This document shows, one piece after another, positions 21,327 through 63,865 of a stretch of DNA of 64,000 nucleotides; position 1 is the stretch's first letter, and every line of letters begins with the position of its first letter. The stretch is from Trypanosoma brucei (taxonomy: Eukaryota), in contig CM000208.1 in the NCBI GenBank assembly GCA_000002445.1, positions 1,312,001-1,376,000 on the forward strand, written 5' to 3'. The notes under the pieces are model-generated. The model made no database searches. It was not told the DNA's origin and saw only the letters and a list, made by a program, of their open reading frames with translations. Made by a program: the position numbers and the translations under genes.

Positions 21327-21628
21327 GCGTAGGAACTCCACCATAGGAAGTATTGTTTGTCATGCTTTTATTCGTGGTTGTTGTCTCTTTTTTCTGTTTT
21401 CATGACTTGGTTTAATTTGTTGTAGGAACCACCTCGTCAGTATCTGGTGGAAGACCCCATGTATCACATTGTCTACCGTTGGTTTTATCACTTTAAAAAT
21501 CTCTTTCATTTTCTATCACCCCTCGGTTTGACATAATCGCTGCGCACTATTCTTATTGTTCGCGCGGTGAAGTGTGTCAACGTTGTGTTTCTGTAGTATT
21601 ACGTTGTGAGGAATTGTATTCCCCGAGA

Positions 21629-46549: not shown

Positions 46550-47020
46550 GTTTCTAACATTTCTTTTTTCCAAACTTGCTTTATTAAAGATGCTGGGCCT
46601 GGGGATGTGCCGTGTGTTATTTCACGTGATGTCTCAGGGGGTGAGAGCATGGTGCTCTGCAGCAGCTCTTGTCTCCCTCTTTTTTACCCTACCCTCCGTC
46701 TCTTGTTCTGCCTATTTTTTCATTTGGATATATTAGTTTAAGCTACCAGTATTATTCTCCTAATACTTCAATATTATTTACAACAAAACCCCCTTTTGAC
46801 TGCTCGATTGGAGGTGAAGGCCTACCCCTCGAAGGTTTAGGGGGTTTCTAAAGGTTAACTCAAATCGATGTCTTAGTGGACTCGTACACCCTTGGTAGGG
46901 TTTCCACGCACATTCAAAGGTGGTTGCCTACAAACTATTTTATGTTTTATTTGTTTTTTTTTCACTACCGCCGATGTGTGGGAAAGTATCGTTCAGTATT
47001 TTCGTCCTTCTTACTTACCG

Positions 47021-47066
47021 TCCTTCTCGTATCTCCCCCCTCTCCTTTCCTTTTAACCCTCGCTTG
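47021..47066 (+). promoter_or_regulatory. Polypyrimidine tract plus AG dinucleotides immediately upstream of the ATG at 47094
   Basis: tcccccctctcctttccttttaaccctcgcttg followed by ...gtaAGaaacatAGgAGgATG. Confidence 0.5.
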
Positions 47067-47093
47067 ATTAATGTTTGTAAGAAACATAGGAGG

Positions 47094-48818
47094 ATGACAC
47101 CCGGAGCAATGTACTTATCGTCCGTAACGCTAACTCTCTGCATAGTGCTGTTGGCAACAGGGGCACGGCAATCAGCTGCCGCTGCAGCGGCGGTCGGGGA
47201 GACTGTAATATTAGATCAAGGATCCAGCGAGTCCATACGTATTGTGGAAAGTGGTGGTTCAACCACGGACGCTTCTTTTGACTTTGTTGGATTGTGGCCG
47301 CATGGTGAACACCGTGAAAGTGATGCCATGTTCTTTGACGAAGAGGACGCCAAGTATGAGAAATGGATGGTTAAGGAGAGAGAAAAGAAACGGAAGCAGG
47401 AAAAGGAGAAACGAGAGGAAAAGCAGAAGGCAATGAACAAGTCGAAGGATAAGCCCCGAAAGCCACCAAAAGGAGCTTCCACCTTTCAACTCACTCAAGC
47501 TGCTGTGCGAGCCCGGACAACCGAGCGTCGCAGTCGACTGAGAGCACTGAGGAAACCTAACTCTTTATTATTTGATGCTGCATGGAGCGCTGTTCTCGAG
47601 GATTCAGACAATTTACGAAAGTTGCTCTCCGCGGATTCTATTATGCGCTCTCGGGAAGGGGAGGGGAACAACCCTGAATCGCAGTATGTCCAACTCCTCT
47701 CTACGGCATTCAGCCACACGGTGAGAAACTTAACGACCGAGTCGCGCAGTGATTGGATTTCTCCGCTGATATACGCTTTGCCGTTTCCAGTACTTCTGGA
47801 CAACGGGGCATTGGTGTCTGCGGAGCAGGAGGTGCGGGCCCTAATGACGGACTTGCAAGTAATGAAAGCGACACCGGTTCCTCAGCCGTCATCCAATGGC
47901 AGTGAAAAGAAGGTGCCAAGCAGCACAGATGTGGAAGCCACAACGCAGTTGGTTGAAGACAACCTCCGAATTGCTTCCACCACTATATCCGCAAGCAAAA
48001 GCGCTCACCGCGTCGTGGCGCAGCTTGCTCTGCCTATCATGGGGCATGCGAAGAGCAGTGTCTCCGACCAACTCCGTGAAGTTGAGAAGCAAATAAGGGC
48101 AAACGATGAGTCTACAGTCGCTAAGCGCCGGGAGCTGAAGGACTTAGCGAAACTGAAGAAGGTGGTGAAGGCCACCAAGGACCGCATTCACGCCGCTGAC
48201 GGTGAGTTGCGAAACGCCTACTTCTCTACCACGCCGATGCTGTCGAAGAGTTCCTTTCTAATTTCCCTGGCTCTAATTTGCCGGTTACGTCTTTCAAGAA
48301 ACACGTACGTCGATGCTGTCGATATGCTTCCGGGCATAGACGCTTTTGCTGATTTTACTGGGTCGATGAGGGCCGAGCTGTATTCTTTTCTCTTTTATCC
48401 ACTAGGAGTGGGCGTTGCCGTATCAGCGGCTACAACGTGGTGCTTGTTGTCAACACGTCAGCTGATAACGAAGAAACTCAAACGGCAAGCCGGGCGTCTG
48501 CTACAACAAACTTCAACCAGTGGAGGTAGACCCGGTAAAGTTTCAGGTATAACGATGTTTGCACTGCGAGCGAATCTGCTGTTGGAGGCACTGTCCCCTC
48601 TGTTTGTACCACTAGTTACCTTCTATATCATCAACAGAACGTTAACTAAAGATTTGTTGTATCCGATTGTAATCACTGTGAAGCCGGCCCAGAGGCTAGT
48701 TTTGGGTTTCGTGGTGATAAGTGTTCTTGTGGCGAGTGTAATCGTGTCACGTGTGCTCACGGCCGTAGACAGGTGGTCCTTGAACCGACACAATGCCAAT
48801 AAGAGAAAAGTGCAGTAG
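47094..48818 (+). CDS. Hypothetical secretory/membrane protein (about 574 aa): signal peptide, K/E/R-rich charged segment, C-terminal hydrophobic helices
   Basis: The track ORF starts at a GTG at 46920. The first ATG in a good context is at 47094 and gives MTPGAMYLSSVTLTLCIVLLATGARQSAAAAAA, a classical signal peptide. Charged stretch EKWMVKEREKKRKQEKEKREEKQKAMNKSKDKPRKPPK. C-terminal hydrophobic segments (LYSFLFYPLGVGVAVSAATTWCLL; LVLGFVVISVLVASVIVSRVL). Confidence 0.5.
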   Translation: MTPGAMYLSSVTLTLCIVLLATGARQSAAAAAAVGETVILDQGSSESIRIVESGGSTTDASFDFVGLWPHGEHRESDAMFFDEEDAKYEKWMVKEREKKRKQEKEKREEKQKAMNKSKDKPRKPPKGASTFQLTQAAVRARTTERRSRLRALRKPNSLLFDAAWSAVLEDSDNLRKLLSADSIMRSREGEGNNPESQYVQLLSTAFSHTVRNLTTESRSDWISPLIYALPFPVLLDNGALVSAEQEVRALMTDLQVMKATPVPQPSSNGSEKKVPSSTDVEATTQLVEDNLRIASTTISASKSAHRVVAQLALPIMGHAKSSVSDQLREVEKQIRANDESTVAKRRELKDLAKLKKVVKATKDRIHAADGELRNAYFSTTPMLSKSSFLISLALICRLRLSRNTYVDAVDMLPGIDAFADFTGSMRAELYSFLFYPLGVGVAVSAATTWCLLSTRQLITKKLKRQAGRLLQQTSTSGGRPGKVSGITMFALRANLLLEALSPLFVPLVTFYIINRTLTKDLLYPIVITVKPAQRLVLGFVVISVLVASVIVSRVLTAVDRWSLNRHNANKRKVQ

Positions 48819-49530: not shown

Positions 49531-49680
49531 ACTAAAGGCGTCACTCTCCCTGCTTATTAGGAGAAATAGGGAGAGGGCGGAGGAGAATACTTCTTCGTTT
49601 TCGCTGGCGTGAGGCTAACCGACTTGTTTTGTCCCCTCGTTTGGCCGAAGGATAGGTTACCTGTAGTTTGGTGCGACTTT

Positions 49681-52600
49681 ATGCGTGTGACATGTGTAGT
49701 TGCTTGCGGCTTACGCTCTAGTAGTTCCGACCTGAAGCGGCGGCGAATACGTCAGTTGGAGCGGCAATATGGTCCCGCGTGGCGCTACACTGCAGGGTGG
49801 ACATCGCAACTGTCGCCAGTGGGTATGTTTGACGCATTGGAAGTTCCGGTTTTTCCACCAAACGTGGTGCAAACGCGTGAATTAGATCACGTGGGATGCG
49901 CTAGTGCACCGCGCACTACCGTGGTGTCAAGGGGCCTCGTACAAAACGGAAACCCTAGAGTAAAAGATTCACAACCAACTTCAGTTTTAGACGAAAATAA
50001 CGCTTACTTCAATCCACAACATGATGCAGGTACAAGTTCGAGCGATGACCCCTTGTTCGAGTTTTTAAGGCATGATGATGAACACAGTGCCCTTCTGCTA
50101 GCCATGTGGACTTCCCTTTATCGGTGCTGCGTTCACGCATCCGAGTTGTCCGAGTTTCTTGCATTTCGTGTGCGGTGGTTTCTGCATCATCTCATTCATA
50201 TGCGTGCAACAGCAGCCGCGGTCCGATTTTATCATCGTTTACTGTTGTTGGGCGTACATCTTCAAAAGAAGGATGTGTCGTTGTTGCTTAGCAGTTTACC
50301 CTATGAGCATTACGTAGTGAATGTGGACTTTAAAGGTGAAAGCAAGAAGAAATGTAGCCGTTTTCGTACGATGCGACAGGCTGATACCACTCATGTAGAC
50401 AAAAAGAGTGCTACAAATGGTGATAAGGGAGGTACTGTTGTTTTTAGCGGTGATGGAGGAACTGTTGGTGAGGAGGAGCGTCTTCTGTTCGCTTCAACGA
50501 TAACGTCCACCGGAGCGGACACTTCTTGCGATACTAGTGCTAGAGTGTGCCCGGCAGGAGACACATGCGGGGTGGAGTCGGTTGATTTTGAGTTGACACC
50601 AGCGGGTAGCCGATACTTGCGAGACCAACCAGAATGGGTTAAGCGCTGGGTTCTTTATGAGGCATCCATGGGTAATATTGATCTCTACGATGAGGAGAAC
50701 GCCACCACCCTGCGCGCCGACAAATATGTTGATTCATCTTCCGTGGGATTAGATTGTGGTGATGAATGCACACCATCTGAGGTGAAATGGGCCGAAGGGT
50801 GTATCGATGTGGTTACCCTTCTTAATCATTTGATGCTTCTGCATGATGGAAATCATTTAATCCACAGAGAAACTAGAAAACGTCGAGTGAATGGTAAGGG
50901 AAGATCTGGCATAACTCTAAGAGGAGAAATGCAGCGACACTATTGGGCAGAGGCCCTCCAGATTGCAGGTGCATTCCTCAGTGCGCGCAGCTCAAGGGGA
51001 CGGGAGAGAAAAGCGGAAGAGGGACAATATGAAGTGGGTTGCAGCGTACCGCCTGAGTTCCGCAGTGAGTTGTGTCGTGCGTTAGTTGCCGCTGGCAGTT
51101 GGAAGGTGGCACTCCGATGGCTCAAAGTTGCTGAGCAGTACAGAGTGGGTTTCACGCATAGTGAGTACGCGAGGATTTTCCTTTGTCTTGCTGAGTCAGA
51201 GCCTTGGGAAACATCTCGTGCTGCGGAACGTTTTGTTGCTCGTAATATGATTCCTCTCTTGCCAGAAGAAACCGTATGTGGTTACGCGTCCCGCGCCATG
51301 TGGTTGGCACATGTTTGTTCCCAAAGGGATAATAGGGTGGAAGAATGTTTGGAATTGATGGAATCTACCTCCGGAAATCTCCCTGCGTGCGTAAAACAAA
51401 GTATAGTGTACATCAAGCTCGCTGCGTCATTACTTCGCGTTGATGCTGACAGGTTTTTTGCCGCTGCTGCGCTCCAACAGTTTGAAGCGGCTTCAATTCG
51501 CTTAGGTGTGTTTCATCCCGCGGCCGATCTATCGCAGCGGCATTCCCCTCCCATACAGTTGGTGACTAGGGATATGGCGAGCGCCGGGAGCGGCGCTCTT
51601 CTTACTGTTCAACTGCAGGATTCCTTTGTCTTAGTGTCCATAGCCCTTCCACGCGTTGTAGAACTTGTATCGGTCGCCGCTGCTTCGCAGGAGGATGAAG
51701 TGCAGCTGGCCACCCTTCTGGCTGACGTGCTGTACGGTCCCAATGGTTTGTGGAAGTTTTTTTCTGATGTATGCCTTGTGGGAGAAAGCAAGCAGTTAAC
51801 AAGTCACCGGACTTCAGAAGTCGTGCGAATTTCTTTGTACATGTCACTGTGTCTACTAAAAATTGGTGTTGCGCTTTGCCGGGTGGTTGGGCACGAGAGG
51901 CAAGGCGTTCAAGGAAATCCTCATTTGAGGGAAAAACATTTGACGCTTATATTGGGATTGCTTGAGGAGAGTCTTGGCGCCATTCCGGCGCGAAACGCTG
52001 TGGAGATCAAAGATCGACGGATCATGTTATCACTGGTAGCCACATCGGCCAAGCTAACTAAACATGTTTTTCGACAAATCGGTGTTTATCCCTGCAATGA
52101 GAAAGTTATTTTCGGCTCATTCAGCGAGGAAACTTCTGAAACTGTTGCTTTGATGCTCCGTATTCACGTGCTACTGTGGCGGCGCGTTAGTTCACTCCGT
52201 AGGCATCTTCAGCTTGCCGCAGGGTCGGCGTTGCGTGCTGTGTTCCGACCAACTAGTGAGTTGGGTAAGCACGTACGTGGGCATATACCCCGGCATCAAC
52301 AGCAGGAACTAGACTCGATGCTTGCTTATGGGCGACTACGGAAGTACGGAGAGCGTAGGGCGGGTGCAGCGATCGCGACAAAATCAAAATCGGAGGCGCG
52401 TGTGCATTCACCCGAGGATGTTGCGCGAATCAAGGCGGTCGCGAAAACGCACAGAGTTGTTTATGCATTGTCTCTTCAGCACGTAAACAACGGTGCGGCG
52501 CTCGAGCGTGACTTAATAACTTATCTCAGTAGGGCAAGTTGGGACGGTGCTCTTACGATGCTGCACGTTTCTCTTCACCACTTACGCCTTCCGCATGGTA

Positions 52601-53766
52601 CATTTGGTCTCCCCTTCTTTGCGGGTGTGTTGGCTCGTTTGTGTAAAGCACCCCACAGAACGAAGTCGCTCTGGTTTCAAGCAATTGGGGTGTACTGGGA
52701 CGCCGTGGAGCACGTCCCTCGCCCACACGTATCCGCCAATACAAGTCATGTTGTGGATAGTAAGAGCCAACTCCGCTTACACGAGAGGAATGTTCTAACA
52801 CAACTGCTACTGCCATTACTGCGCTTTAGCGTGTCGACAAGGCAAAAGGAAATGGGATGGTCGTGGATGAGGCGTTGGGACTTGATGCACAAATCAGATG
52901 AACGTGATGTGGAGTATGAAGCACTGAGCGTGTGGGCACGATCGGTGCTTGAGGACCGCTCGGCACTCAAGAGGTGTCAACGGCTGATGGAAAAATATCA
53001 ATATCAACACATGAGGCAAAAAAACCTACCGATGATACCACCGCTGGAAAATATTCTGTGCGACGTTGCAGTCAATCATGCTGATTGGTGTGCTGCTCTC
53101 CACGCACTGGAGACGGTGTTTTGGACACCACAGCGTGGAGGTGACTTCATCACGACACCACTCCCGCCGCGAGCGGCAACTGCGGTGCTTCGTATACTTT
53201 GCAAGGCACCCACGAACTTGTGCAATACGGCTCGCCGTCTCCGAGAGATTCAGGGAAGCTGCTGGGATTTACGTAGCGCCAACAGTCTGCTTCTATTGTT
53301 GGTAAGGCAGAGGCGTTGGCAGCTTGCATTGCAACACGTTGCTGAAATGCTTCCAGTTGTGCAGAACGGCCGCCAAAAGTCTGATGTGGTGGGTGGGAAT
53401 AGCGTCTTCGATATGTGCTTGGAGGGTGATGGCAAGACAGAGCAGGCTTTATTCCTAGTTCATGGGTTGCGGGCGTGCGCAAATGGAGGTCGTGCGGAGG
53501 AGGCAGCGACGTTGTATGACCTTGTTAAACAATTGGCTGGCTTGGAAGCGGTGGTTCGTGCTGCGGACATAAACGTTGAGAGTAGTGTAACCTATGCTCT
53601 AAAGCGGCCGGAAGACATGTTGTTTTTCATGTGCAACCAAACTGATCAACCACAAGATACACTGGCATGTGACGAAGATGAGCGAATGCGCATGCTAGTT
53701 GGACAAGCGCGTGTTTACTTTCTCCGAGCGATGACTAAGAAAACTCTGCGTTGCAACAGGCGATAA
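49681..53766 (+). CDS. Large hypothetical protein (about 1362 aa), R/S-rich presequence-like N-terminus, helical-repeat body
   Basis: The track ORF begins at a GTG at 49609; the first ATG is at 49681 (MRVTCVVACGLRSSSSDLKRRRIRQLERQ...). No catalytic motif recognised. The body is leucine- and arginine-rich helical sequence, possibly PPR/TPR-like. Confidence 0.5.
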   Translation: MRVTCVVACGLRSSSSDLKRRRIRQLERQYGPAWRYTAGWTSQLSPVGMFDALEVPVFPPNVVQTRELDHVGCASAPRTTVVSRGLVQNGNPRVKDSQPTSVLDENNAYFNPQHDAGTSSSDDPLFEFLRHDDEHSALLLAMWTSLYRCCVHASELSEFLAFRVRWFLHHLIHMRATAAAVRFYHRLLLLGVHLQKKDVSLLLSSLPYEHYVVNVDFKGESKKKCSRFRTMRQADTTHVDKKSATNGDKGGTVVFSGDGGTVGEEERLLFASTITSTGADTSCDTSARVCPAGDTCGVESVDFELTPAGSRYLRDQPEWVKRWVLYEASMGNIDLYDEENATTLRADKYVDSSSVGLDCGDECTPSEVKWAEGCIDVVTLLNHLMLLHDGNHLIHRETRKRRVNGKGRSGITLRGEMQRHYWAEALQIAGAFLSARSSRGRERKAEEGQYEVGCSVPPEFRSELCRALVAAGSWKVALRWLKVAEQYRVGFTHSEYARIFLCLAESEPWETSRAAERFVARNMIPLLPEETVCGYASRAMWLAHVCSQRDNRVEECLELMESTSGNLPACVKQSIVYIKLAASLLRVDADRFFAAAALQQFEAASIRLGVFHPAADLSQRHSPPIQLVTRDMASAGSGALLTVQLQDSFVLVSIALPRVVELVSVAAASQEDEVQLATLLADVLYGPNGLWKFFSDVCLVGESKQLTSHRTSEVVRISLYMSLCLLKIGVALCRVVGHERQGVQGNPHLREKHLTLILGLLEESLGAIPARNAVEIKDRRIMLSLVATSAKLTKHVFRQIGVYPCNEKVIFGSFSEETSETVALMLRIHVLLWRRVSSLRRHLQLAAGSALRAVFRPTSELGKHVRGHIPRHQQQELDSMLAYGRLRKYGERRAGAAIATKSKSEARVHSPEDVARIKAVAKTHRVVYALSLQHVNNGAALERDLITYLSRASWDGALTMLHVSLHHLRLPHGTFGLPFFAGVLARLCKAPHRTKSLWFQAIGVYWDAVEHVPRPHVSANTSHVVDSKSQLRLHERNVLTQLLLPLLRFSVSTRQKEMGWSWMRRWDLMHKSDERDVEYEALSVWARSVLEDRSALKRCQRLMEKYQYQHMRQKNLPMIPPLENILCDVAVNHADWCAALHALETVFWTPQRGGDFITTPLPPRAATAVLRILCKAPTNLCNTARRLREIQGSCWDLRSANSLLLLLVRQRRWQLALQHVAEMLPVVQNGRQKSDVVGGNSVFDMCLEGDGKTEQALFLVHGLRACANGGRAEEAATLYDLVKQLAGLEAVVRAADINVESSVTYALKRPEDMLFFMCNQTDQPQDTLACDEDERMRMLVGQARVYFLRAMTKKTLRCNRR

Positions 53767-54568: not shown

Positions 54569-55414
54569 ATGGCACAGTCTTTGGTGTGGCGGTACTTGGG
54601 ACCGGAGGACACGCATCGGTGTCTCGATGCGCCTGATGTGCCTTCTGTTCGGAACCTGTTGGTTGAAATTGACGACGGAATGGATGGAAAGCTTATCAAC
54701 TGTCGCAACTACAATAAGGGGCAGCTGATGATTGTGCTAGACATGCTTGCGCATCTAATTGTGTTCACTAAAACATGTTCCATGTCGCTAGAGAAGGTTA
54801 GTACAATTGTGGGTATTATGCTGGAGTTGCACCGAGAGAGCATGTCGAATCAGTATACACGATCCCAATCGTATCACCGACTGCGTGAGCTGATGCTACT
54901 CCACAGTGTTCCCCGCCCACCGTTCTCATGTGGCATCTTTAGTGTGGCGGATGTACAGCATATAGACGAATATCTCTTATTGTCTTATTTCCGCCATTAC
55001 AAAATGTATGTGTACGCTTTCGTGCCTCAGCGTTTAGCGAATATTCACAGCGTTTCCGTCGGGCACAACCACTGTGTACCTCCTTTAGGACTCCCCGCCC
55101 TTACGACAGCGACGCCACGGGCAGAATGGATAGCGAAAGTGGAAGACACACACCGACAGATGGAGGAACGGCAGATGGAAGTGGAGGATGTGCGGTCTGC
55201 TGAATACGAGGAAGAATGGTTGAAACACCGCTACCTTAACGGCACGCACTACAGCGAGGGGTTGAGGGAACAGCTGCAGAGTATAAAGAGGGATGTTTCT
55301 GATAAAGCACTCAACCAACTGGATTTGATTGAGGCGCGTCTGGTGGAAATAGAGAAGAAGGTGGAGATAGTGCAGCAGCGACAGGATGGGAAGGGTGGTA
55401 AGCGAAAAAAATAG
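54569..55414 (+). CDS. Hypothetical protein (281 aa) with C-terminal coiled coil and a basic tail
   Basis: ATG at 54569. C-terminus: EDTHRQMEERQMEVEDVRSAEYEEEWLKHRY...LDLIEARLVEIEKKVEIVQQRQDGKGGKRKK. Codon usage is consistent with its neighbours. Confidence 0.4.
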   Translation: MAQSLVWRYLGPEDTHRCLDAPDVPSVRNLLVEIDDGMDGKLINCRNYNKGQLMIVLDMLAHLIVFTKTCSMSLEKVSTIVGIMLELHRESMSNQYTRSQSYHRLRELMLLHSVPRPPFSCGIFSVADVQHIDEYLLLSYFRHYKMYVYAFVPQRLANIHSVSVGHNHCVPPLGLPALTTATPRAEWIAKVEDTHRQMEERQMEVEDVRSAEYEEEWLKHRYLNGTHYSEGLREQLQSIKRDVSDKALNQLDLIEARLVEIEKKVEIVQQRQDGKGGKRKK

Positions 55415-55838: not shown

Positions 55839-57455
55839 ATGGAGCGCGGAGGGCGCTGCCTCTTCAGGAGGTGGAGTACCCGCGCATTGCCCTCCGTGTC
55901 TCACACACTACGATGTCGTGGAACAATTTCTAACTCAGGTGGGGAGGGAAATGATGCAATCGCTGAACCTCGTCGCGTGCGTCTGGTGCCGTCTGCACCT
56001 CATGGGAACAATTCTTCGGAGCTATTTTCTGTCGGTGTGGATCCCAGAAGTCATACATGTGATCCCGATGATCCATATTCCCACATCCAAATATACAGAA
56101 AGGACATGGTAGCGGACGCCGGTGGTCGAGCGTTTCAACTAAGTGTTGATGTTCCGTTGAAAAAATTTGTGGACCTCTTCAGTGATTTCGATGGAAAACG
56201 TTGTAAGCTCTGCAACGAAAGCTACATGCAGTGGCATAGTCATAGCAGTGTTATTCCCCACTCAGGGAGGGAGGCACTTATGCTTGAGATGGTCCGTGCA
56301 TACTGCGGCCTACCGGAGGATATTGCAAAAATGTGGTGGCATCGACTCAATACGTCGCCCGCGTTCAATCGCATCCCGAAACTGAGTCATGACAATAGTC
56401 ACACCAGAAAGCGCAGGTTACAGTACCTTCTGAAATTTCTGAAAGATAGGGACGTGATCCGCGACACATTCAACGTTCACAACAGCTCTGGAACTGCTGG
56501 TCGTTCGTGGGAATTCGAACGTCTCGAATGGATTGGGGATAATGTTGTGAAGTATGTGTTTAACGATCGGTTTAATGTCATATTTCCTGTGCGTGAGGGC
56601 GGTATTCGGGGCCGATTGGGGTACGCGCAATTTATGATAGATGGCAATGATGGCTTGGCACGCGCCTATGACTACTTGGAGCTTCAGAAGCTGACTCTAA
56701 GTGACCGGGTTGTGAGCAAATTCAAGAGCGATGTGGTGGAGACATTGTTTGGTGAACTTCAGCTTTATATTTGGTCTTCAGAGACGGACGCCGGCACTAC
56801 CTGTTACCCACTTCCATTTACTGGCGAGATGTTTTCCCTTCGTGCTCTCGTGTGGCACGTGATGGAGGAGTTGGCACATGTAATGTTTATGTATCACGTG
56901 GAACACGCGCTTGCGGCTATTCAGCGTGTTGTAAGGGAAAATCAACTGCAATTTATCCGTGCAGATCCTGCACTGCGCGGTCATGCGGACCTGCAGAGTG
57001 AGTTGGCAAACACGGTTTACGCTAAAAAAGCTGCGTCTGGGCCAAGCAAACTCACGTCGACAAAAGTGTCTCCTGGTGCCCGTTTCAGGGACGGTGGTGC
57101 CTCGTTTTACCACGAAGCATCGAACTATGATGGTTTCAAACGTGTGTGCACTCTTGGGGGTCTCCTGCCCCGACCATTTTCACCCCGTGAGTTGACGTCC
57201 ACAACGTCTTTTCTTCCTCATTTGCAGGAAGACAGTGCGATGACACGCCGAGTGCCTGTGGACTGGACACGTAAACTTTTTGACGATTGCACTGGCAACG
57301 CCACGAAGAAGCCCGGAGCCCCCAACTTTTTACCATGGCAGGCCGTCACGCTACAGCCCCGTTCCCGTTGTTCTGCAGAGGAGGCTGGACGGTCAACTTC
57401 ACGCCTGGGTATTCCTGAATTGAAGGACGCACTACTAGTGGCCGAATTAGTTTAG
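55839..57455 (+). CDS. RNA-editing endonuclease-like protein: U1-type zinc finger plus RNase III domain (538 aa); KREN2/KREPB3-like, paralog of 17493..19283
   Basis: ATG at 55839. R-rich presequence-like N-terminus (MERGGRCLFRRWSTRALPSVSHTLRCRG). Zinc finger CKLCNESYMQWHSH. RNase III signature FERLEWIGDNVVKYVF. Shares ...LFGELQ...W... blocks with the 596-aa paralog. Confidence 0.7.
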   Translation: MERGGRCLFRRWSTRALPSVSHTLRCRGTISNSGGEGNDAIAEPRRVRLVPSAPHGNNSSELFSVGVDPRSHTCDPDDPYSHIQIYRKDMVADAGGRAFQLSVDVPLKKFVDLFSDFDGKRCKLCNESYMQWHSHSSVIPHSGREALMLEMVRAYCGLPEDIAKMWWHRLNTSPAFNRIPKLSHDNSHTRKRRLQYLLKFLKDRDVIRDTFNVHNSSGTAGRSWEFERLEWIGDNVVKYVFNDRFNVIFPVREGGIRGRLGYAQFMIDGNDGLARAYDYLELQKLTLSDRVVSKFKSDVVETLFGELQLYIWSSETDAGTTCYPLPFTGEMFSLRALVWHVMEELAHVMFMYHVEHALAAIQRVVRENQLQFIRADPALRGHADLQSELANTVYAKKAASGPSKLTSTKVSPGARFRDGGASFYHEASNYDGFKRVCTLGGLLPRPFSPRELTSTTSFLPHLQEDSAMTRRVPVDWTRKLFDDCTGNATKKPGAPNFLPWQAVTLQPRSRCSAEEAGRSTSRLGIPELKDALLVAELV

Positions 57456-57957: not shown

Positions 57958-60831
57958 ATGTCACAGAAAGAGGAGAATAGCGTCAACGGCGATGAGACCA
58001 ATACAACCCTGCCGCGTGCGGTGTTAAAGACGCGTACAGCGTCTCAGCTCTACAAAGAAGGGGGGAGCGTAGGCACCATGGCGTCGTTTAACTCATTGCC
58101 GCAGGTTGAACAGCTGTTATTCAAGGTACAGGCAGCAGAAATGACCCTTCTCGCAGCACTTGATGTTGCTGAACGAAGTCCTGAAGATAAGAAAATATTT
58201 GGCCATGCCACACTTACCATGGCAGAGAACTACCTCTCGGAAATTATTTCCATCATTCCACACTGCAGTCGCTCGACTGACGCACCCCACCTTTCTATCA
58301 ACAGTTCCGCGATTCAGCGGCTCATTGCGTTGTATGGGGCGTCCGATGATGTCGTTAAGTTTGTCGCGCACCTTTCCACATCGCAGCCGAGAGTAGCTGA
58401 ATTATCTCCTCGTGACGTAACAACTGTAGTATACAACATTAGTGAGGTCGCTCGGCTGTTCAAGCAGTCTATGAAAGAGAGTGGAGAGCAGTGCGGTGTT
58501 TTCACCAAATCAACAACAAGCTTACAGCCTTCACCGATGAAGGAAAGTGAATCAGCCGTAGCTGATGAAGGGACTGTTCCTCCCGCACCAACGGCTGGCC
58601 GGAAACGAGGCCGACCTTCGCGGAATAAGTCTTCGGATACACCAGCGGAGCCTGGAGCTGAAGGTTCTCCTGAACACGGGACTTTCACGGGGGAGGGTGG
58701 CGCGGCGGCAAAGGATAAGAGGAAAAAATCTGAGGAGACTTCTTCTCGGAAACCGAAAAGTAACGAAGGAACACCGAGCGGTCCAAGAAAAATAAGTTAT
58801 TGTCGCCTACGTGCGCTGACAACCGCGGAAAAGAGAGTCACCACCAGTCTCAACCAGATAGTCCAGCTTCTGGGACATTTATATGCTCACCAATACAACG
58901 ATTTGTTGCCAGTGTTTGGATTTCTTGAGGCACGGGTGAAACAACTGCAAGAAACCATTGATGTGGAGCGTGCTGCCTTTGCAAAGAAAGATATCGCAAC
59001 GAGATCCCCAGAGCCTTTCATTGGGGTTTCAGTGCAGTCCATCATAGCTGCAATCCGATCTTCTCTTCACACTTACTCAACGGAGGAATGGTGTCGGCAA
59101 GAATTCGATGAGGACCTGCTTCACCCCGTAGCTCATGCGTGCATGACAGAGGTAAACCGCATTGAGGGTTTCGCAACCGAGCCTTTTGTAGGAATTACTG
59201 CTGAAGCACTAGCTGCAAAAATCGCCACTCGGAAGGCTGCACGCATCAAACTGGAGGAAAAGTGGGAGAAAGAGCGGGAACGTGCGAGGGAGAAGGAGGA
59301 GGCACAGGTTAAATACAACGAAGAACGACGTTGGCTGCGAGCGCGGTTTGGTGATATAGACAAGGCGAGCCTTGTAGAAGACACTTCTATAGATAATCCT
59401 GCTGTGTCTGCTCCTGTGTACTACAGCGATCTCCCGTTGCAAGATGTGGAATTGTATGAGCGGGCACTTTTTGTTTGGACGATGCTTGTGTCCGTTCCTC
59501 AAGCTTTGCGTCTTTCACAGATGCCCTTCAATATATTTCTGAAATCTGTTACCACGGGAGTTGGTGGAACTGATACACTGATTGAGGAAATTGTGAAGTC
59601 TTTGTTAGAGGTGCTAGTGGAAAACCTCCGTGCGGGCAACGGCTCACGAATCAACATCAAGGGAAAGTATTGGTTTGACGCCATGGTGGAGTTCGTTGCA
59701 GTGACAAGTGGAAACCGGAGGAAGCGGGATAACAAGCAGAAAAAGGACATCAAGGAGGAAGAAGAAGAGGAGGAGGAGGAAGAAGAGGAAGGGGAAGAAA
59801 CGGAGGATGAGACAGTTGAGGAACAGGAGGAGGATGAAGAAGAGGCGCAGGAAAAAATAGAGGGCAGTACTGACACAGAAAAAACCGGTAACGACCGAGA
59901 ACCCCAGAACTCTGAGGACTTGAAGCAAGATGTGGAAGAGGAAAAAAGTAAGGAAGAGAATGAAGGCGAAAATCTCGCCAACATGATCAGGGGGACCATG
60001 GAAAACGTGGCTGAGCTCCGCAACATGGCGACGTGGTTTAACATAAACTTACCTGATCGTCTCAACCTCCTGTATTACTTGGTGTTAGAAGCGCTGCATA
60101 CTCCCGTGGTGCAGGGCGAAGCCGAAAAGATGCGGAAAAGGTACGAGGAGCAACAGTTGCTCGTCGGAAAGTGCATCAAGGAAGTTTGTGAGGAGGCATG
60201 TAAAGAGTTCAAGGGCCTTGCCAGGAAACTAGCGGTGTCGAAATCTGAAGACGAGGAGCAGTCTGTCGAAGAGAAACGGAAAGAAATTCTGCAGGAGTGC
60301 AGTAACCGCCTCAAAAGTACTGTCGAGGAACAAATAGGGGTACAAGACGGTAAGGATGTTGGTACTATAATCCGTCCCATAGGCATGGACCGCTACAAGA
60401 GAGTGTACTGGCGTTTGCCATTTGATCGCCACATTACGGTTCAAAGTACACAGGCCACAAACTTGGATTTCCCAGCTCTGCGTGGTGTTACGTATTTGGC
60501 GGAGCGCACCTCCCACAGTTTCGCTGGAAACTTGCTTGATGACGATGATTGTGAAACAGGCGTGCAGGTGGGGAGCACCGAAAGCGCTAGTGCCCAGGGC
60601 AGTGCCAATGATCAGATACCTCAGAAGGTTTGGGGAACTGTGCCACTAACCTGCCTGGGTACTTTTATAGAAGGTTTGGATAGGCGTGGCGTTCGTGAAG
60701 GGGAGCTCAGGCGGAACCTGGAGATTTTGCAGCCGTACCTAGCAAGCATGAGCGAAATAACTGGGGGACGCATCACAAGATTCAGGTCTCAGACCTTCGG
60801 TTATCAGAACAAGCTAAGGCTCGAGTTGTGA
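57958..60831 (+). CDS. Putative chromatin-associated protein (957 aa): AT-hook, DDT-like and WHIM-like motifs, long acidic (poly-Glu) tract
   Basis: ATG at 57958. AT-hook-like GRKRGRPSRNK. DDT-like helix pattern DVELYERALFVWTMLVSVPQALRLSQMPFNIFLKSV. Acidic tract KEEEEEEEEEEEGEETEDETVEEQEEDEEEAQE. WHIM-like LNLLYYLVLEALHTPVV further downstream. Confidence 0.55.
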   Translation: MSQKEENSVNGDETNTTLPRAVLKTRTASQLYKEGGSVGTMASFNSLPQVEQLLFKVQAAEMTLLAALDVAERSPEDKKIFGHATLTMAENYLSEIISIIPHCSRSTDAPHLSINSSAIQRLIALYGASDDVVKFVAHLSTSQPRVAELSPRDVTTVVYNISEVARLFKQSMKESGEQCGVFTKSTTSLQPSPMKESESAVADEGTVPPAPTAGRKRGRPSRNKSSDTPAEPGAEGSPEHGTFTGEGGAAAKDKRKKSEETSSRKPKSNEGTPSGPRKISYCRLRALTTAEKRVTTSLNQIVQLLGHLYAHQYNDLLPVFGFLEARVKQLQETIDVERAAFAKKDIATRSPEPFIGVSVQSIIAAIRSSLHTYSTEEWCRQEFDEDLLHPVAHACMTEVNRIEGFATEPFVGITAEALAAKIATRKAARIKLEEKWEKERERAREKEEAQVKYNEERRWLRARFGDIDKASLVEDTSIDNPAVSAPVYYSDLPLQDVELYERALFVWTMLVSVPQALRLSQMPFNIFLKSVTTGVGGTDTLIEEIVKSLLEVLVENLRAGNGSRINIKGKYWFDAMVEFVAVTSGNRRKRDNKQKKDIKEEEEEEEEEEEEGEETEDETVEEQEEDEEEAQEKIEGSTDTEKTGNDREPQNSEDLKQDVEEEKSKEENEGENLANMIRGTMENVAELRNMATWFNINLPDRLNLLYYLVLEALHTPVVQGEAEKMRKRYEEQQLLVGKCIKEVCEEACKEFKGLARKLAVSKSEDEEQSVEEKRKEILQECSNRLKSTVEEQIGVQDGKDVGTIIRPIGMDRYKRVYWRLPFDRHITVQSTQATNLDFPALRGVTYLAERTSHSFAGNLLDDDDCETGVQVGSTESASAQGSANDQIPQKVWGTVPLTCLGTFIEGLDRRGVREGELRRNLEILQPYLASMSEITGGRITRFRSQTFGYQNKLRLEL
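59752..59850 (+). repeat. GAR (gaa/gag) trinucleotide-rich coding repeat giving the poly-Glu tract
   Basis: gaggaagaagaagaggaggaggaggaagaagaggaaggggaagaaacggaggatgag... Confidence 0.85.
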
Positions 60832-61724: not shown

Positions 61725-62102
61725 ATGCGGACGATTGACTGCGAGTTCTCGCACTTCGCTGTACATCCGGGCCATGGCCGCCGCTACGTCCCGTTTGCCT
61801 TCTTATCAACGAAGCCTGTGCTGACATTTGCGCGCCCGAAGTGTTTCGCGATGTACATGCGCAAAAAGAACCCACGCTTTATTGCCTGGACCCGCACGTA
61901 CCGCCGCATTCATCGGAAGACGACGACCGACCGCGTGGGCCGCCGCCGTGCCGCCCGCACAGTGAGGACAGAGCGCGCCATCGTCGGTGCTGAGCTCTCC
62001 TACATTCAAGAAGTGCGAGCAAAGGCGAAGAAGGTTGACCGTACCGCCAAGGGCAAAGCCGTGCGTGAGGAGATGGCTGCTCGTAAGGCAGCGAAGAAAT
62101 AG
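61725..62102 (+). CDS. RPL24: 60S ribosomal protein L24 (eL24), 125 aa
   Basis: Homology begins at the internal ATG at 61725: MRTIDCEFSHFAVHPGHGRRYVPF...KNPRFIAWTRTYRRIHRK. The TRASH-type zinc-binding N-terminus and basic C-terminal tail are characteristic of eL24. The upstream part of the track ORF (61548..) is pyrimidine-rich and not coding. Confidence 0.88.
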   Translation: MRTIDCEFSHFAVHPGHGRRYVPFAFLSTKPVLTFARPKCFAMYMRKKNPRFIAWTRTYRRIHRKTTTDRVGRRRAARTVRTERAIVGAELSYIQEVRAKAKKVDRTAKGKAVREEMAARKAAKK

Positions 62103-62428: not shown

Positions 62429-63865
62429 ATGATATCTTACAAGCGGCGAAACATGTTCCTTGCAGATGGTAGACGAGTTTTGGTTGGAAACTTTATTATG
62501 TCCATTTCCACTATAATAGTTACCTTTTATCTCACGCAGGGGCACTTACAGGTGGGTCAGTGGCGCCTCCTGGATGACATCTCTCCGCGGTTGTCAGAGG
62601 CTGCGCGGAAGATTGGAATGCTTGAGGTTGAGTTGCCATATCCTTTCAACCACGTTAGCGCCGTTGTCGCCAGTCCAACAGGTATAGCAGACGCTGGTCA
62701 TAAGGTTATGCGTTTTTTTGGTACAAATTTGCGTTCCAACATCATAACGGAAAAAGTGAATGGGGAAGCAGCAAACTTGCTTGCTACTGGTTTTAGCAGT
62801 GAAAGTACAATATTGGCTCACCTGCTGTCGCCTAAGGCTGATGGACCCCTCGGAATAATGGGAATACTTCATCTGTGCTCGGCCACCAGCTGCATGGCCC
62901 CTTATTTCACACAACAATATGCAACTGTAACGGTACGGCCTTCAGGAAATTATCGCCTATTCGTAGGTGCACTTGTTTACGGAGACGTCTTCTTGGGTTC
63001 GGTCGTTGAGAATGACCTTGCCGCTCTTGATGTTGTGCTGCCTCGTGCCTCCAGGGGGAGGGAAGCAACAGGAGCTATGCCACTCCACGGCGTTGTTGGC
63101 GGGAGCTATGCGGGGAAGAGCGTGACTGTTAAGTGTTCGGTCTCAATCAATAGTTGTCAGTATGAGTTTCGAGACGATGACACTGACGCATCACATCCTT
63201 CAGTCACCGTCGTTCACCTGGATGACGTAAAGTTGGGCGAGGCCGAGCTCCCTGTGATGGGGTTTCGTGTGGTTCACATTGATCTTAATTCTGAAGAACA
63301 ACTTGCGATCGTGACTTATCTCACGGGTTTGTTGCACGTGTCCGCGAGGCCTGAGCATATCATTGTTACGCTCTACCCCTCACCCTTTCTCGAAGAGACT
63401 ATAACGGCTGTGGACGTTTTGAGAGTAAGTGTGCCTTACAATGTTTTTATCGAGGGCGGCAGGTGCAGGTTAACGACAAATTCATCAACTGTGCCCTCCG
63501 CTGAAGTTCTGCGCCTCGTTTTGCGTCGGGCAGGTACCTCAGCGTCATCTGCCCTCAACACTCGGAGCTACGCGGCCGAACCATTATGTGTCCTAGTACT
63601 GTCAAAGTCAATCACGTCGTTGTCACAACTGTTGGAGCATGTTGCACCGACCAAGCAGGAAGACGTTATGAAAACATTCCTGGGTACAAGCTTGGATCAG
63701 GGCAGTCACAGAGGAGTACCATGCAGAGGGAAACACAGCAAACCAAATGCTTTCAAATGGATCTTGCTAATAACAGTGCCGCTGCTGGTTGCTGGACTGC
63801 TCGCTTGCGGCATGCTTTATGGGAGAAGGCGTGTGCCGTTGTTGTGGGAGGACAAAAGACCATAA
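62429..63865 (+). CDS. Hypothetical membrane protein (478 aa): N-terminal hydrophobic signal/anchor, large lumenal/extracellular domain, single C-terminal TM plus a short basic tail
   Basis: ATG at 62429. N-terminus ...RRVLVGNFIMSISTIIVTFYLTQG. C-terminus KWILLITVPLLVAGLLACGMLYGRRRVPLLWEDKRP. Confidence 0.5.
   Translation: MISYKRRNMFLADGRRVLVGNFIMSISTIIVTFYLTQGHLQVGQWRLLDDISPRLSEAARKIGMLEVELPYPFNHVSAVVASPTGIADAGHKVMRFFGTNLRSNIITEKVNGEAANLLATGFSSESTILAHLLSPKADGPLGIMGILHLCSATSCMAPYFTQQYATVTVRPSGNYRLFVGALVYGDVFLGSVVENDLAALDVVLPRASRGREATGAMPLHGVVGGSYAGKSVTVKCSVSINSCQYEFRDDDTDASHPSVTVVHLDDVKLGEAELPVMGFRVVHIDLNSEEQLAIVTYLTGLLHVSARPEHIIVTLYPSPFLEETITAVDVLRVSVPYNVFIEGGRCRLTTNSSTVPSAEVLRLVLRRAGTSASSALNTRSYAAEPLCVLVLSKSITSLSQLLEHVAPTKQEDVMKTFLGTSLDQGSHRGVPCRGKHSKPNAFKWILLITVPLLVAGLLACGMLYGRRRVPLLWEDKRP

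What the first reader, a model, noticed from the sequence alone, without database searches (positions are those of the whole stretch)
57958..60831. Candidate chromatin-remodeller accessory protein: AT-hook, DDT/WHIM-like motifs and a 30-residue poly-Glu tract
The 957-aa protein combines three things. It has an AT-hook-like GRKRGRPSRNK at about 58595..58630. It has a segment matching the hydrophobic periodicity of DDT domains (DVELYERALFVWTMLVSVPQALRLSQMPFNIFLKSV, about 59440..59550). It has a WHIM-like LNLLYYLVLEALHTPVV after an uninterrupted acidic tract (59752..59850). In other eukaryotes DDT/WHIM proteins partner ISWI ATPases. Kinetoplastid ISWI partners are poorly defined, so a DDT-bearing partner here would be notable. 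The domain assignment is by eye only.
Basis: inference. Interest (0 to 1): 0.55.

Follow-up and report, generated by a model that had tools for sequence, protein, structure and literature searches.

The report
Known trypanosome ISWI partner NLP

Summary
It is Trypanosoma brucei NLP ("nucleoplasmin-like protein", Tb927.10.5450). Length, AT-hook position (aa 214) and Glu-rich start (aa 600) match the 2010 description. Both published NLP RNAi primers match the window exactly, 835 bp apart as published.

The DDT/WHIM reading is supported:
- Pfam WSD/WHIM2 scores above its curated cut-off.
- DDT is sub-threshold here but hits 7/7 orthologues.
- An NLP C-terminal profile retrieves an insect BAZ1A and a Euglena DDT-PHD-WSD protein.
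- hhalign of the NLP clade against distant DDT-WSD proteins gives E = 7.7e-34 over aa 472-924.
- The WHIM1 basic residue (R701) and the WHIM2 GxD (G809/D811) are invariant.

NLP was shown to be an ISWI subunit by tandem affinity purification and co-immunoprecipitation in 2015. DDT and WSD were noted in the T. cruzi orthologue in 2020.

Corrections:
- The pure poly-Glu run is 12 residues, not 30.
- The AT-hook is specific to T. brucei.
- The "nucleoplasmin-like domain" is really the DDT domain plus an acidic linker.

Verdict: already known, low interest.

The parts
57958..60831 (+). Complete coding sequence of T. brucei NLP (Tb927.10.5450), 957 aa plus stop
   Evidence: ORF. The published NLP RNAi primers match exactly at 59480-59494 (+) and 60300-60314 (-), giving the published 835-bp fragment. 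Length, AT-hook position and Glu-rich start match PMC3064810.
58006..58518 (+). N-terminal conserved domain (aa 17-187), mostly helical with two short strands. Specific to the NLP clade. Function unknown.
   Evidence: Conserved in all orthologues. pLDDT is 81-93 over most of aa 21-180 in the full-length model. No Pfam family matches. It is not covered by the hhalign match to distant DDT-WSD proteins. Foldseek against PDB gave only generic helical bundles with E>1.
58597..58629 (+). AT-hook-like motif GRKRGRPSRNK (aa 214-224) inside a disordered basic/Ser-rich linker (aa 188-282)
   Evidence: Sequence. Same residues as the AT-hook reported in PMC3064810 (aa 214-226). The RGRP core is absent at this position in all 14 orthologues. 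The linker has pLDDT <30.
58804..59352 (+). Middle conserved helical region (aa 283-465). It includes the invariant DEDLLHP...NRIEGF block and a K/R/E-rich long helix. Specific to the NLP clade.
   Evidence: Invariant columns. Helices. No Pfam hit. It lies outside the hhalign match to distant DDT-WSD proteins.
59443..59712 (+). DDT domain and its trailing helices (aa 496-585; Pfam DDT match aa 501-555)
   Evidence: Pfam DDT E 0.031 here, with 7/7 orthologues matching and best E 7.8e-6. The region is aligned in hhalign to distant DDT-WSD proteins although it was not part of the search profile. Helices at aa 497-512, 514-517, 524-532, 540-559 and 572-584 have pLDDT 83-97.
59713..59985 (+). Acidic, disordered DDT-to-WHIM1 linker (aa 586-676), starting with a basic patch and holding the 12-Glu run (aa 600-611, 59755-59790)
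   Evidence: 47% D/E here. Composition, but not sequence, is conserved in 15 orthologues at 28-49% D/E. pLDDT <50 for aa 602-648.
59995..60132 (+). WHIM1 motif (aa 680-725) with invariant W693 and R701.
   Evidence: R701 is invariant and W693 nearly so in 33 sequences. Pfam WHIM1 hits 4/7 orthologues. hhalign places aa 693-718 on the Pfam WHIM1 (aa 105-135) of Plutella BAZ1A.
60133..60351 (+). Long antiparallel helical hairpin (aa 726-798) linking WHIM1 to WHIM2
   Evidence: Helices aa 716-760 and 764-798 with pLDDT >90. Aligned to distant DDT-WSD proteins.
60373..60723 (+). WSD / WHIM2 motif (aa 806-922). It has the GxD signature G809-M-D811, then RYxRxYW, then after a variable insert the WG...LDxRGxRE..L half.
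   Evidence: Pfam WSD 31.7 bits against a cut-off of 25.4. G809, D811, R812, R815 and W818 are invariant in 33 sequences.
60769..60816 (+). C-terminal conserved motif TRxR...GYxNxL (aa 938-953)
   Evidence: Conserved across the NLP clade and the distant DDT-WSD proteins. Not covered by a Pfam model.

Best explanation
The ORF encodes T. brucei NLP, the large non-catalytic subunit of the single major trypanosome ISWI chromatin-remodelling complex (ISWI, NLP, RCCP, FYRP).

Its C-terminal half (aa ~496-930) is a DDT-WHIM1-WHIM2(WSD) helical module. This is homologous to the module in ACF1/BAZ, Itc1 and Ioc3 proteins.

By analogy with those proteins, I infer that the module clamps the HAND-SANT-SLIDE end of ISWI and contacts linker DNA. 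In that way it would set where and how far ISWI slides nucleosomes.

The T. brucei-specific AT-hook in the disordered N-terminal linker probably adds affinity for AT-rich repeats. The conserved acidic DDT-WHIM1 linker probably contacts histones or auto-regulates DNA binding. Both of these are inferences.

Shown experimentally by others: NLP is essential. It co-purifies reciprocally with ISWI. It is enriched on 177-bp and 50-bp repeats and on non-transcribed spacers. Its knockdown derepresses silent VSG expression sites 45- to 65-fold.
For: Identity:
- 957 aa, AT-hook at aa 214 and Glu-rich region from aa 600, as in PMC3064810.
- Both published RNAi primers match exactly, 835 bp apart.
- Orthologues are named NLP or 'ISWI complex protein'.

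Domains:
- Pfam WSD scores above its cut-off and DDT falls at the predicted place.
- DDT hits 7/7, WSD 6/7 and WHIM1 4/7 orthologues.
- An exhaustive HMMER search with an NLP C-terminal profile reaches Plutella BAZ1A (WSD+PHD+bromodomain) and Euglena DDT-PHD-WSD.
- hhalign of the NLP clade against distant DDT-WSD proteins gives probability 99.9%, E 7.7e-34, over aa 472-924, including the DDT region that was not used for retrieval.
- WHIM1 aligns to BAZ1A WHIM1.
- R701, G809 and D811 are invariant.

Structure:
- The model of aa 475-957 has pLDDT 80.7 and pTM 0.77.

ISWI association comes from TAP and co-IP in T. brucei (PMC4646403) and affinity purification-MS in T. cruzi (PMC7233268). The role of the DDT-WHIM module in binding SLIDE and linker DNA is as summarised in PMC8536118.
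Against: - In this protein alone, DDT is below Pfam's cut-off (14.8 against 22 bits) and WHIM1 is not reported.
- Foldseek against PDB found nothing.
- A sequence profile against PDB chains did not reach Ioc3.
- Which NLP region touches ISWI has not been mapped. The SLIDE-binding and ruler mechanism is transferred from yeast and animal proteins.
- The AT-hook is absent from all orthologues examined, so it cannot be part of the conserved mechanism.
- The BAZ1A hit (P0035) is an odd gene model with six WSD copies, which inflates its E-value.
Confidence: 0.93

Rival explanations
1. NLP is a nucleoplasmin-type histone chaperone, which is the original 2010 annotation. On this reading, aa 497-647 form a nucleoplasmin-like core that binds and deposits histones, and ISWI association is secondary.
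For: MyHits reported a nucleoplasmin-like domain (e = 2.3e-3) at aa 497-647, overlapping a Glu-rich tract (PMC3064810). Histones H2A, H2B and H4 co-purified with the complex. The acidic linker is conserved in composition in 15 orthologues.
Against: - Pfam reports no nucleoplasmin family at E<=10 for this protein or at E<=1 for 7 orthologues.
- aa 497-584 are confidently predicted as alpha-helices and match DDT, and aa 602-648 are disordered. The nucleoplasmin core is a beta-barrel pentamer (established knowledge).
- The similarity is explained by the acidic low-complexity tract. My own full-length searches were swamped by poly-Glu matches in the same way.
Confidence: 0.03
2. NLP is primarily a sequence-directed repeat-binding protein that works through its AT-hook. 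It recruits silencing factors to AT-rich repeats, and the DDT/WHIM similarity is a degenerate relic without a role in ISWI binding.
For: NLP was first isolated by DNA affinity on 177-bp repeats and is ChIP-enriched on 177-bp and 50-bp repeats. The RGRP core with flanking basic residues is a good AT-hook and is unlikely by chance (about 0.01 expected).
Against: - The AT-hook core is missing in T. congolense, T. vivax, T. cruzi, T. grayi, T. theileri, T. rangeli, Leptomonas and others. The DDT/WHIM residues are invariant across the clade and beyond, which indicates purifying selection on the module.
- T. cruzi NLP lacks the AT-hook and still co-purifies with ISWI.
Confidence: 0.04

Closest known systems
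Trypanosoma brucei NLP (Tb927.10.5450), subunit of the TbISWI complex (Narayanan et al. 2011, PMC3064810; Stanne et al. 2015, PMC4646403)
   Same: It is the same gene. It has the same length (957 aa), the same AT-hook and Glu-rich positions, and exact matches to both published RNAi primers.
   Different: Nothing differs in the sequence features examined. The exact strain was not determined, and the exact protein sequence is absent from the searchable collection. The published domain description ('nucleoplasmin-like domain' at aa 497-647, 'no significant homology with known ISWI partners') is superseded by DDT plus acidic linker plus WHIM.
Trypanosoma cruzi NLP / 'ISWI complex protein' (Diaz-Olmos et al. 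2020, PMC7233268)
   Same: It is the orthologue, 43-44% identical over the full length. DDT and WSD domains were reported from CDD, and it co-purifies with TcISWI.
   Different: It lacks the RGRP AT-hook core, having only 'PRKRRAS' at that position. Its DDT domain scores above the Pfam threshold, whereas the T. brucei one does not.
ACF1/BAZ1A, BAZ1B (WSTF) and yeast Itc1: WAC-DDT-WHIM(-PHD-bromodomain) ISWI subunits
   Same: They share the DDT, WHIM1 and WHIM2/WSD motifs in the same order, with the same conserved basic residue and GxD signature. They are also the large regulatory subunit of an ISWI complex.
   Different: No WAC, PHD or bromodomain is detectable in NLP. Instead NLP has two clade-specific N-terminal and middle domains, an AT-hook (T. 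brucei only) and an acidic DDT-WHIM1 linker. Sequence identity is about 12-22% and only in the motifs.
Yeast Ioc3 (ISW1a; PDB 2y9y/2y9z)
   Different: It has 12% identity. It was not found by Foldseek or by a sequence profile. The rank of 23 among generic helical hits means the match supports the assignment but does not prove it.
Nucleoplasmin/nucleophosmin histone chaperones
   Same: They share only a long acidic (poly-Glu/Asp) tract.
   Different: NLP has no nucleoplasmin core domain. The region formerly called nucleoplasmin-like is helical DDT plus a disordered linker.

Membership tests
DDT-WHIM ISWI accessory subunits (ACF1/BAZ, Itc1, Ioc3, plant DDT proteins) | DDT domain (Pfam PF02791) | tested here: met
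   In this protein alone the hit is sub-threshold: 14.8 bits against a cut-off of 22, E 0.031, aa 501-555. It is met at family level. All 7 orthologues match, best E 7.8e-6. Two orthologues carry a precomputed PF02791 hit. The region aligns to the DDT of distant DDT-WSD proteins in hhalign at E 7.7e-34.
DDT-WHIM ISWI accessory subunits (ACF1/BAZ, Itc1, Ioc3, plant DDT proteins) | WHIM1 motif with its conserved basic residue | tested here: met
   Pfam WHIM1 is not reported for this protein but hits 4/7 orthologues, best E 0.0034. hhalign puts aa 693-718 on the Pfam WHIM1 of Plutella BAZ1A at E 1.2e-4. R701 is invariant and W693 nearly invariant in 33 sequences.
DDT-WHIM ISWI accessory subunits (ACF1/BAZ, Itc1, Ioc3, plant DDT proteins) | WHIM2 / WSD (D-TOX E) motif with GxD signature (Pfam PF15613) | tested here: met
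   31.7 bits against a curated cut-off of 25.4, aa 806-922. G809 and D811 are invariant in 33 sequences. In the reciprocal test, the NLP C-terminal profile retrieves proteins that all carry Pfam WSD.
DDT-WHIM ISWI accessory subunits (ACF1/BAZ, Itc1, Ioc3, plant DDT proteins) | Fold like the solved Ioc3 DDT/WHIM module | tested here: inconclusive
DDT-WHIM ISWI accessory subunits (ACF1/BAZ, Itc1, Ioc3, plant DDT proteins) | Stable physical association with an ISWI ATPase | not testable with these tools
   Published: reciprocal TAP and co-IP of NLP and TbISWI in both life-cycle stages (PMC4646403), and affinity purification-MS in T. cruzi (PMC7233268). The contact region has not been mapped.
BAZ subfamily (BAZ1A/1B/2A/2B) | WAC or MBD at the N-terminus and PHD finger plus bromodomain at the C-terminus | tested here: not met
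   No WAC, PHD or bromodomain hit at E<=10. The protein ends 35 residues after the WSD motif. NLP is therefore not a BAZ-subfamily member but a minimal DDT-WHIM protein with its own N-terminal domains.
Nucleoplasmin/nucleophosmin | Nucleoplasmin core domain (beta-barrel, pentameric) | tested here: not met
   No nucleoplasmin family is reported at E<=10 for this protein or at E<=1 in 7 orthologues. The region once assigned (aa 497-647) is predicted helical and then disordered.
AT-hook DNA-binding proteins | R-G-R-P core flanked by basic residues | tested here: met
   GRKRGRPSRNK at aa 214-224. About 0.01 occurrences are expected by chance. The core is not conserved in any of 14 orthologues. DNA binding by the motif itself was not tested.

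The most novel reading that the evidence does not exclude
The two confidently folded or conserved regions that lie outside the DDT-WHIM module are the N-terminal domain (aa 17-187) and the middle DEDLLHP/NRIEGF region (aa 283-465). Both are restricted to the NLP clade. They could be new docking modules that recruit the kinetoplastid-only subunits RCCP and FYRP. On that reading, trypanosomes kept an ancestral ISWI-DDT/WHIM core and bolted a lineage-specific targeting platform onto it.
Probability: 0.3. Interest if true: 0.35.

Novelty: already known. Interest (0 to 1): 0.15.

Why it matters
The practical value is a clean-up of annotation. NLP has been described in the T. brucei literature as 'nucleoplasmin-like', kinetoplastid-specific and without homology to known ISWI partners. 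It is in fact the trypanosome counterpart of the ACF1/Itc1/Ioc3 class.

This implies that the ISWI-DDT/WHIM pairing predates the split of Euglenozoa from other eukaryotes. It also gives precise residues (R701, G809, D811) to mutate when dissecting how ISWI silences VSG expression sites.

It is not a discovery. The ISWI partnership was shown in 2015. The DDT/WSD content was published for the T. cruzi orthologue in 2020. UniProt and NCBI already name the T. congolense and T. vivax orthologues as WHIM2/WSD proteins.

Tried and rejected
- Full-length searches (phmmer against PDB; word-indexed homologue search) were dominated by poly-Glu matches. They returned only ribosomal protein, ryanodine receptor and similar low-complexity hits, which I discarded.
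- Two further homologue searches, one with the C-terminus and one with an acid-tract-deleted alignment, added only one fragment. T. brucei itself and Leishmania are not retrievable from that index, and the exact sequence is not in the collection.
I used an unedited C-terminal alignment instead.
- A profile of the orthologues against PDB sequences found nothing relevant.
- The full-length AlphaFold model from 7 sequences was poor in the DDT-WHIM half (mean pLDDT 52.6). Its Foldseek hits were meaningless. A second model of aa 475-957 with 33 sequences was good.
- The Aravind & Iyer 2012 WHIM paper could not be read. The role of the WHIM module is cited from a review and otherwise from general knowledge.
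- I considered nucleoplasmin membership and rejected it. I considered BAZ-subfamily membership and rejected it, because there is no WAC, PHD or bromodomain.
Full report
**Observation**

The window holds an ATG-to-stop ORF of 957 codons at 57958..60831 on the + strand. All ORFs of 250 aa or more in the 64-kb window are on the + strand, as expected for a trypanosomatid polycistronic unit.

- GRKRGRPSRNK is aa 214-224 (58597-58629).
- DVELYERALFVW...FLKSV is aa 496-531 (59443-59550).
- LNLLYYLVLEALHTPVV is aa 702-718 (60061-60111).

Two details are overstated.
- The '30-residue poly-Glu' is a run of 12 Glu (aa 600-611) inside a 30-residue stretch with 23 E and 2 D, broken by G, T, T, V and Q. The wider acidic linker (aa 586-676) is 47% D/E.
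- The WHIM-like helix lies about 70 residues downstream of that stretch, not directly after it.

The 188-aa antisense ORF at 59499..60065 is simply the poly-Ser reverse reading of the acidic tract.

**Identity**

The closest database proteins are annotated 'nucleoplasmin-like protein (NLP)' or 'ISWI complex protein' in T. grayi, T. theileri, T. rangeli, T. cruzi and T. conorhini, at 43-48% identity.

The 2010 paper that defined T. brucei NLP (Tb927.10.5450; PMC3064810) describes a 957-aa protein with these features:
- an AT-hook at residues 214-226;
- a Glu-rich region at 600-671;
- an 835-bp RNAi fragment amplified with two stated primers.

Both primer sequences match the window exactly and uniquely, at 59480-59494 (+) and 60300-60314 (-). 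That spans exactly 835 bp. The gene is therefore T. brucei NLP. The exact protein sequence is not in the searchable protein collection, so the strain or subspecies was not determined.

**What is already known about it**

- NLP was isolated by DNA affinity on the 177-bp minichromosome repeats.
- It is essential in bloodstream forms.
- It is ChIP-enriched on 177-bp and 50-bp repeats and on non-transcribed spacers.
- Its knockdown derepresses silent VSG expression sites 45- to 65-fold (PMC3064810).

In 2015 tandem affinity purification of TbISWI, and reciprocally of NLP, recovered ISWI, NLP, RCCP, FYRP and histones. Co-immunoprecipitation confirmed the interactions in both life-cycle stages (PMC4646403). 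[quoted passage not shown]

In 2020 a T. cruzi study recovered the same partners with TcISWI. Using CDD, it noted that NLP alone carries the DDT and WSD domains typical of ISWI accessory subunits (PMC7233268). It is the only paper in the library that links NLP to DDT.

Public names of two orthologues already reflect the domains:
- T. congolense: 'WHIM2 domain-containing protein'.
- T. vivax: 'Williams Beuren syndrome DDT (WSD) D TOX E motif'.

**Testing the DDT/WHIM assignment**

Pfam places WSD (WHIM2) at aa 806-922 with 31.7 bits against a curated cut-off of 25.4. Scanning seven orthologues separately gives these results:

| Family | Orthologues matching | Best E-value |
|---|---|---|
| DDT | 7/7 | 7.8e-6 |
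| WSD | 6/7 (the seventh is a truncated gene model) | 2.5e-11 |
| WHIM1 | 4/7 | 0.0034 |

As a reciprocal test, I built a profile from only the NLP C-terminus (window aa 677-957 plus the T. conorhini fragment) and ran it exhaustively against 1.84 billion representatives. It gave 40 hits at E<=1e-3. Beyond the kinetoplastid orthologues, the hits include:
- a Plutella xylostella BAZ1A with WSD, WHIM1, PHD and bromodomain;
- a Euglena longa protein with DDT, PHD and WSD;
- several unnamed DDT+WSD proteins.

Profile-profile comparison of 15 NLP-clade sequences against five of these distant proteins gives probability 99.9% and E 7.7e-34 over NLP aa 472-924. This includes the DDT region, which was not part of the retrieval profile and so is independent evidence.

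Against the single BAZ1A sequence, NLP aa 693-845 align to BAZ1A 105-270 (E 1.2e-4).

Across 33 aligned sequences the invariant residues are R701 (WHIM1 basic residue), G809 and D811 (WHIM2 GxD), R812, R815 and W818. The downstream WG...LDxRGxRE..L block and a C-terminal TRxR..GYxN motif are also conserved.

**Structure**

- A full-length AlphaFold model from seven sequences was poor in the C-terminal half (mean pLDDT 52.6). It was confident for an N-terminal domain, with pLDDT 81-93 over most of aa 21-180.
- Remodelling aa 475-957 with the 33-sequence alignment gave pLDDT 80.7 and pTM 0.77. The model shows a helical DDT domain (aa 497-584), a disordered acidic linker (aa 602-648), the WHIM1 helix (698-713), a long helical hairpin (716-798) and a small beta/helix WSD unit (807-930).
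- Foldseek against PDB found nothing, and the AFDB library was unavailable.

I count the structural evidence as supportive but not decisive. The sequence-profile evidence carries the assignment.

**What NLP is not**

No nucleoplasmin family is reported at E<=10 for this protein, or at E<=1 for seven orthologues. The published 'nucleoplasmin-like domain' (aa 497-647) corresponds to the helical DDT domain plus the disordered acidic linker. The nucleoplasmin core is a beta-barrel pentamer (general knowledge). The old similarity is explained by the acidic tract. The same artefact filled my own full-length searches with poly-Glu proteins.

NLP is also not a BAZ-subfamily member, because no WAC, PHD or bromodomain is present.

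**Lineage-specific features**

- The RGRP AT-hook core occurs at this position only in the window protein. T. congolense has KRGRG-SRR there, and the others keep at most an RKR. The AT-hook is therefore a T. brucei addition, not part of the conserved mechanism. It may still help explain repeat binding in T. brucei.
- The acidic DDT-WHIM1 linker is conserved in composition (28-49% D/E) in all 15 NLP-clade sequences but not in sequence. In the Euglena relative a PHD finger occupies this position.
- The N-terminal domain (aa 17-187) and the middle region (aa 283-465, with the invariant DEDLLHP and NRIEGF blocks) are conserved throughout the NLP clade. They have no Pfam match and are not shared with the distant DDT-WSD proteins.

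**Mechanism**

Shown by others: NLP is a stoichiometric, essential ISWI-complex subunit needed for silencing of Pol I-transcribed and repeat regions.

Shown here: it carries a complete DDT-WHIM1-WHIM2 module with the family's signature residues.

Inferred from the family (summarised in PMC8536118): this module binds the SLIDE end of ISWI and linker DNA and so tunes nucleosome positioning and spacing.

Inferred, untested:
- The AT-hook biases the T. brucei complex to AT-rich repeats.
- The acidic linker contacts histones or auto-inhibits DNA binding.
- The two clade-specific domains dock RCCP and FYRP.

**Verdict**

The gene, its ISWI partnership and, for the orthologue, its DDT/WSD content are already published. 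The residual value is annotation clean-up and a set of residues for mutagenesis. Novelty: already known. Interest: low.

Noticed in passing
window 55839-57455 (+): The gene immediately upstream (538 aa) has a sub-threshold RNase III domain hit (E 0.012, aa 227-305). It contains an ERLEWIGDN motif resembling the RNase III signature and a C..C...H....H zinc-finger-like stretch. From memory this neighbourhood may hold a kinetoplastid RNA-editing endonuclease (KREN2). This was not verified.
   Followed up: partly
window 61725-62102 (+): This is a ribosomal protein L24e gene (Pfam E 3.9e-20). The listed 184-aa TTG ORF from 61548 over-extends it upstream, and the real start is the ATG at 61725.
   Followed up: partly
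window 54569-55414 (+): The 281-aa protein has a strong CLAMP / flagellar C1a-32 domain (Pfam E 2.9e-29), making it a likely central-pair flagellar protein.
   Followed up: partly
window 21572-34057 (+): A very long ORF of 4161 aa. All 15 ORFs of 250 aa or more in the window are on the + strand, consistent with one polycistronic transcription unit. The large ORF was not examined.
   Followed up: no
window 58006-58518 (+), NLP aa 17-187: This N-terminal domain of NLP is predicted with high confidence (pLDDT mostly 81-93). It has no Pfam family and no significant PDB match. It is conserved across kinetoplastid NLPs but absent from distant DDT-WSD proteins.
   Followed up: partly
window 60769-60816 (+), NLP aa 938-953: The extreme C-terminal motif TRxR...GYxNxL is conserved from trypanosome NLP to Euglena and unnamed DDT-WSD proteins. 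It lies outside the Pfam WSD model and may be an unmodelled extension of the WHIM module.
   Followed up: partly
window 62429-63865 (+), 46920-48818 (+), 49609-53766 (+): Three sizeable ORFs (478, 632 and 1385 aa) have no Pfam match at E<=1. The 478-aa one ends in a hydrophobic stretch that looks like a C-terminal transmembrane anchor.
   Followed up: no
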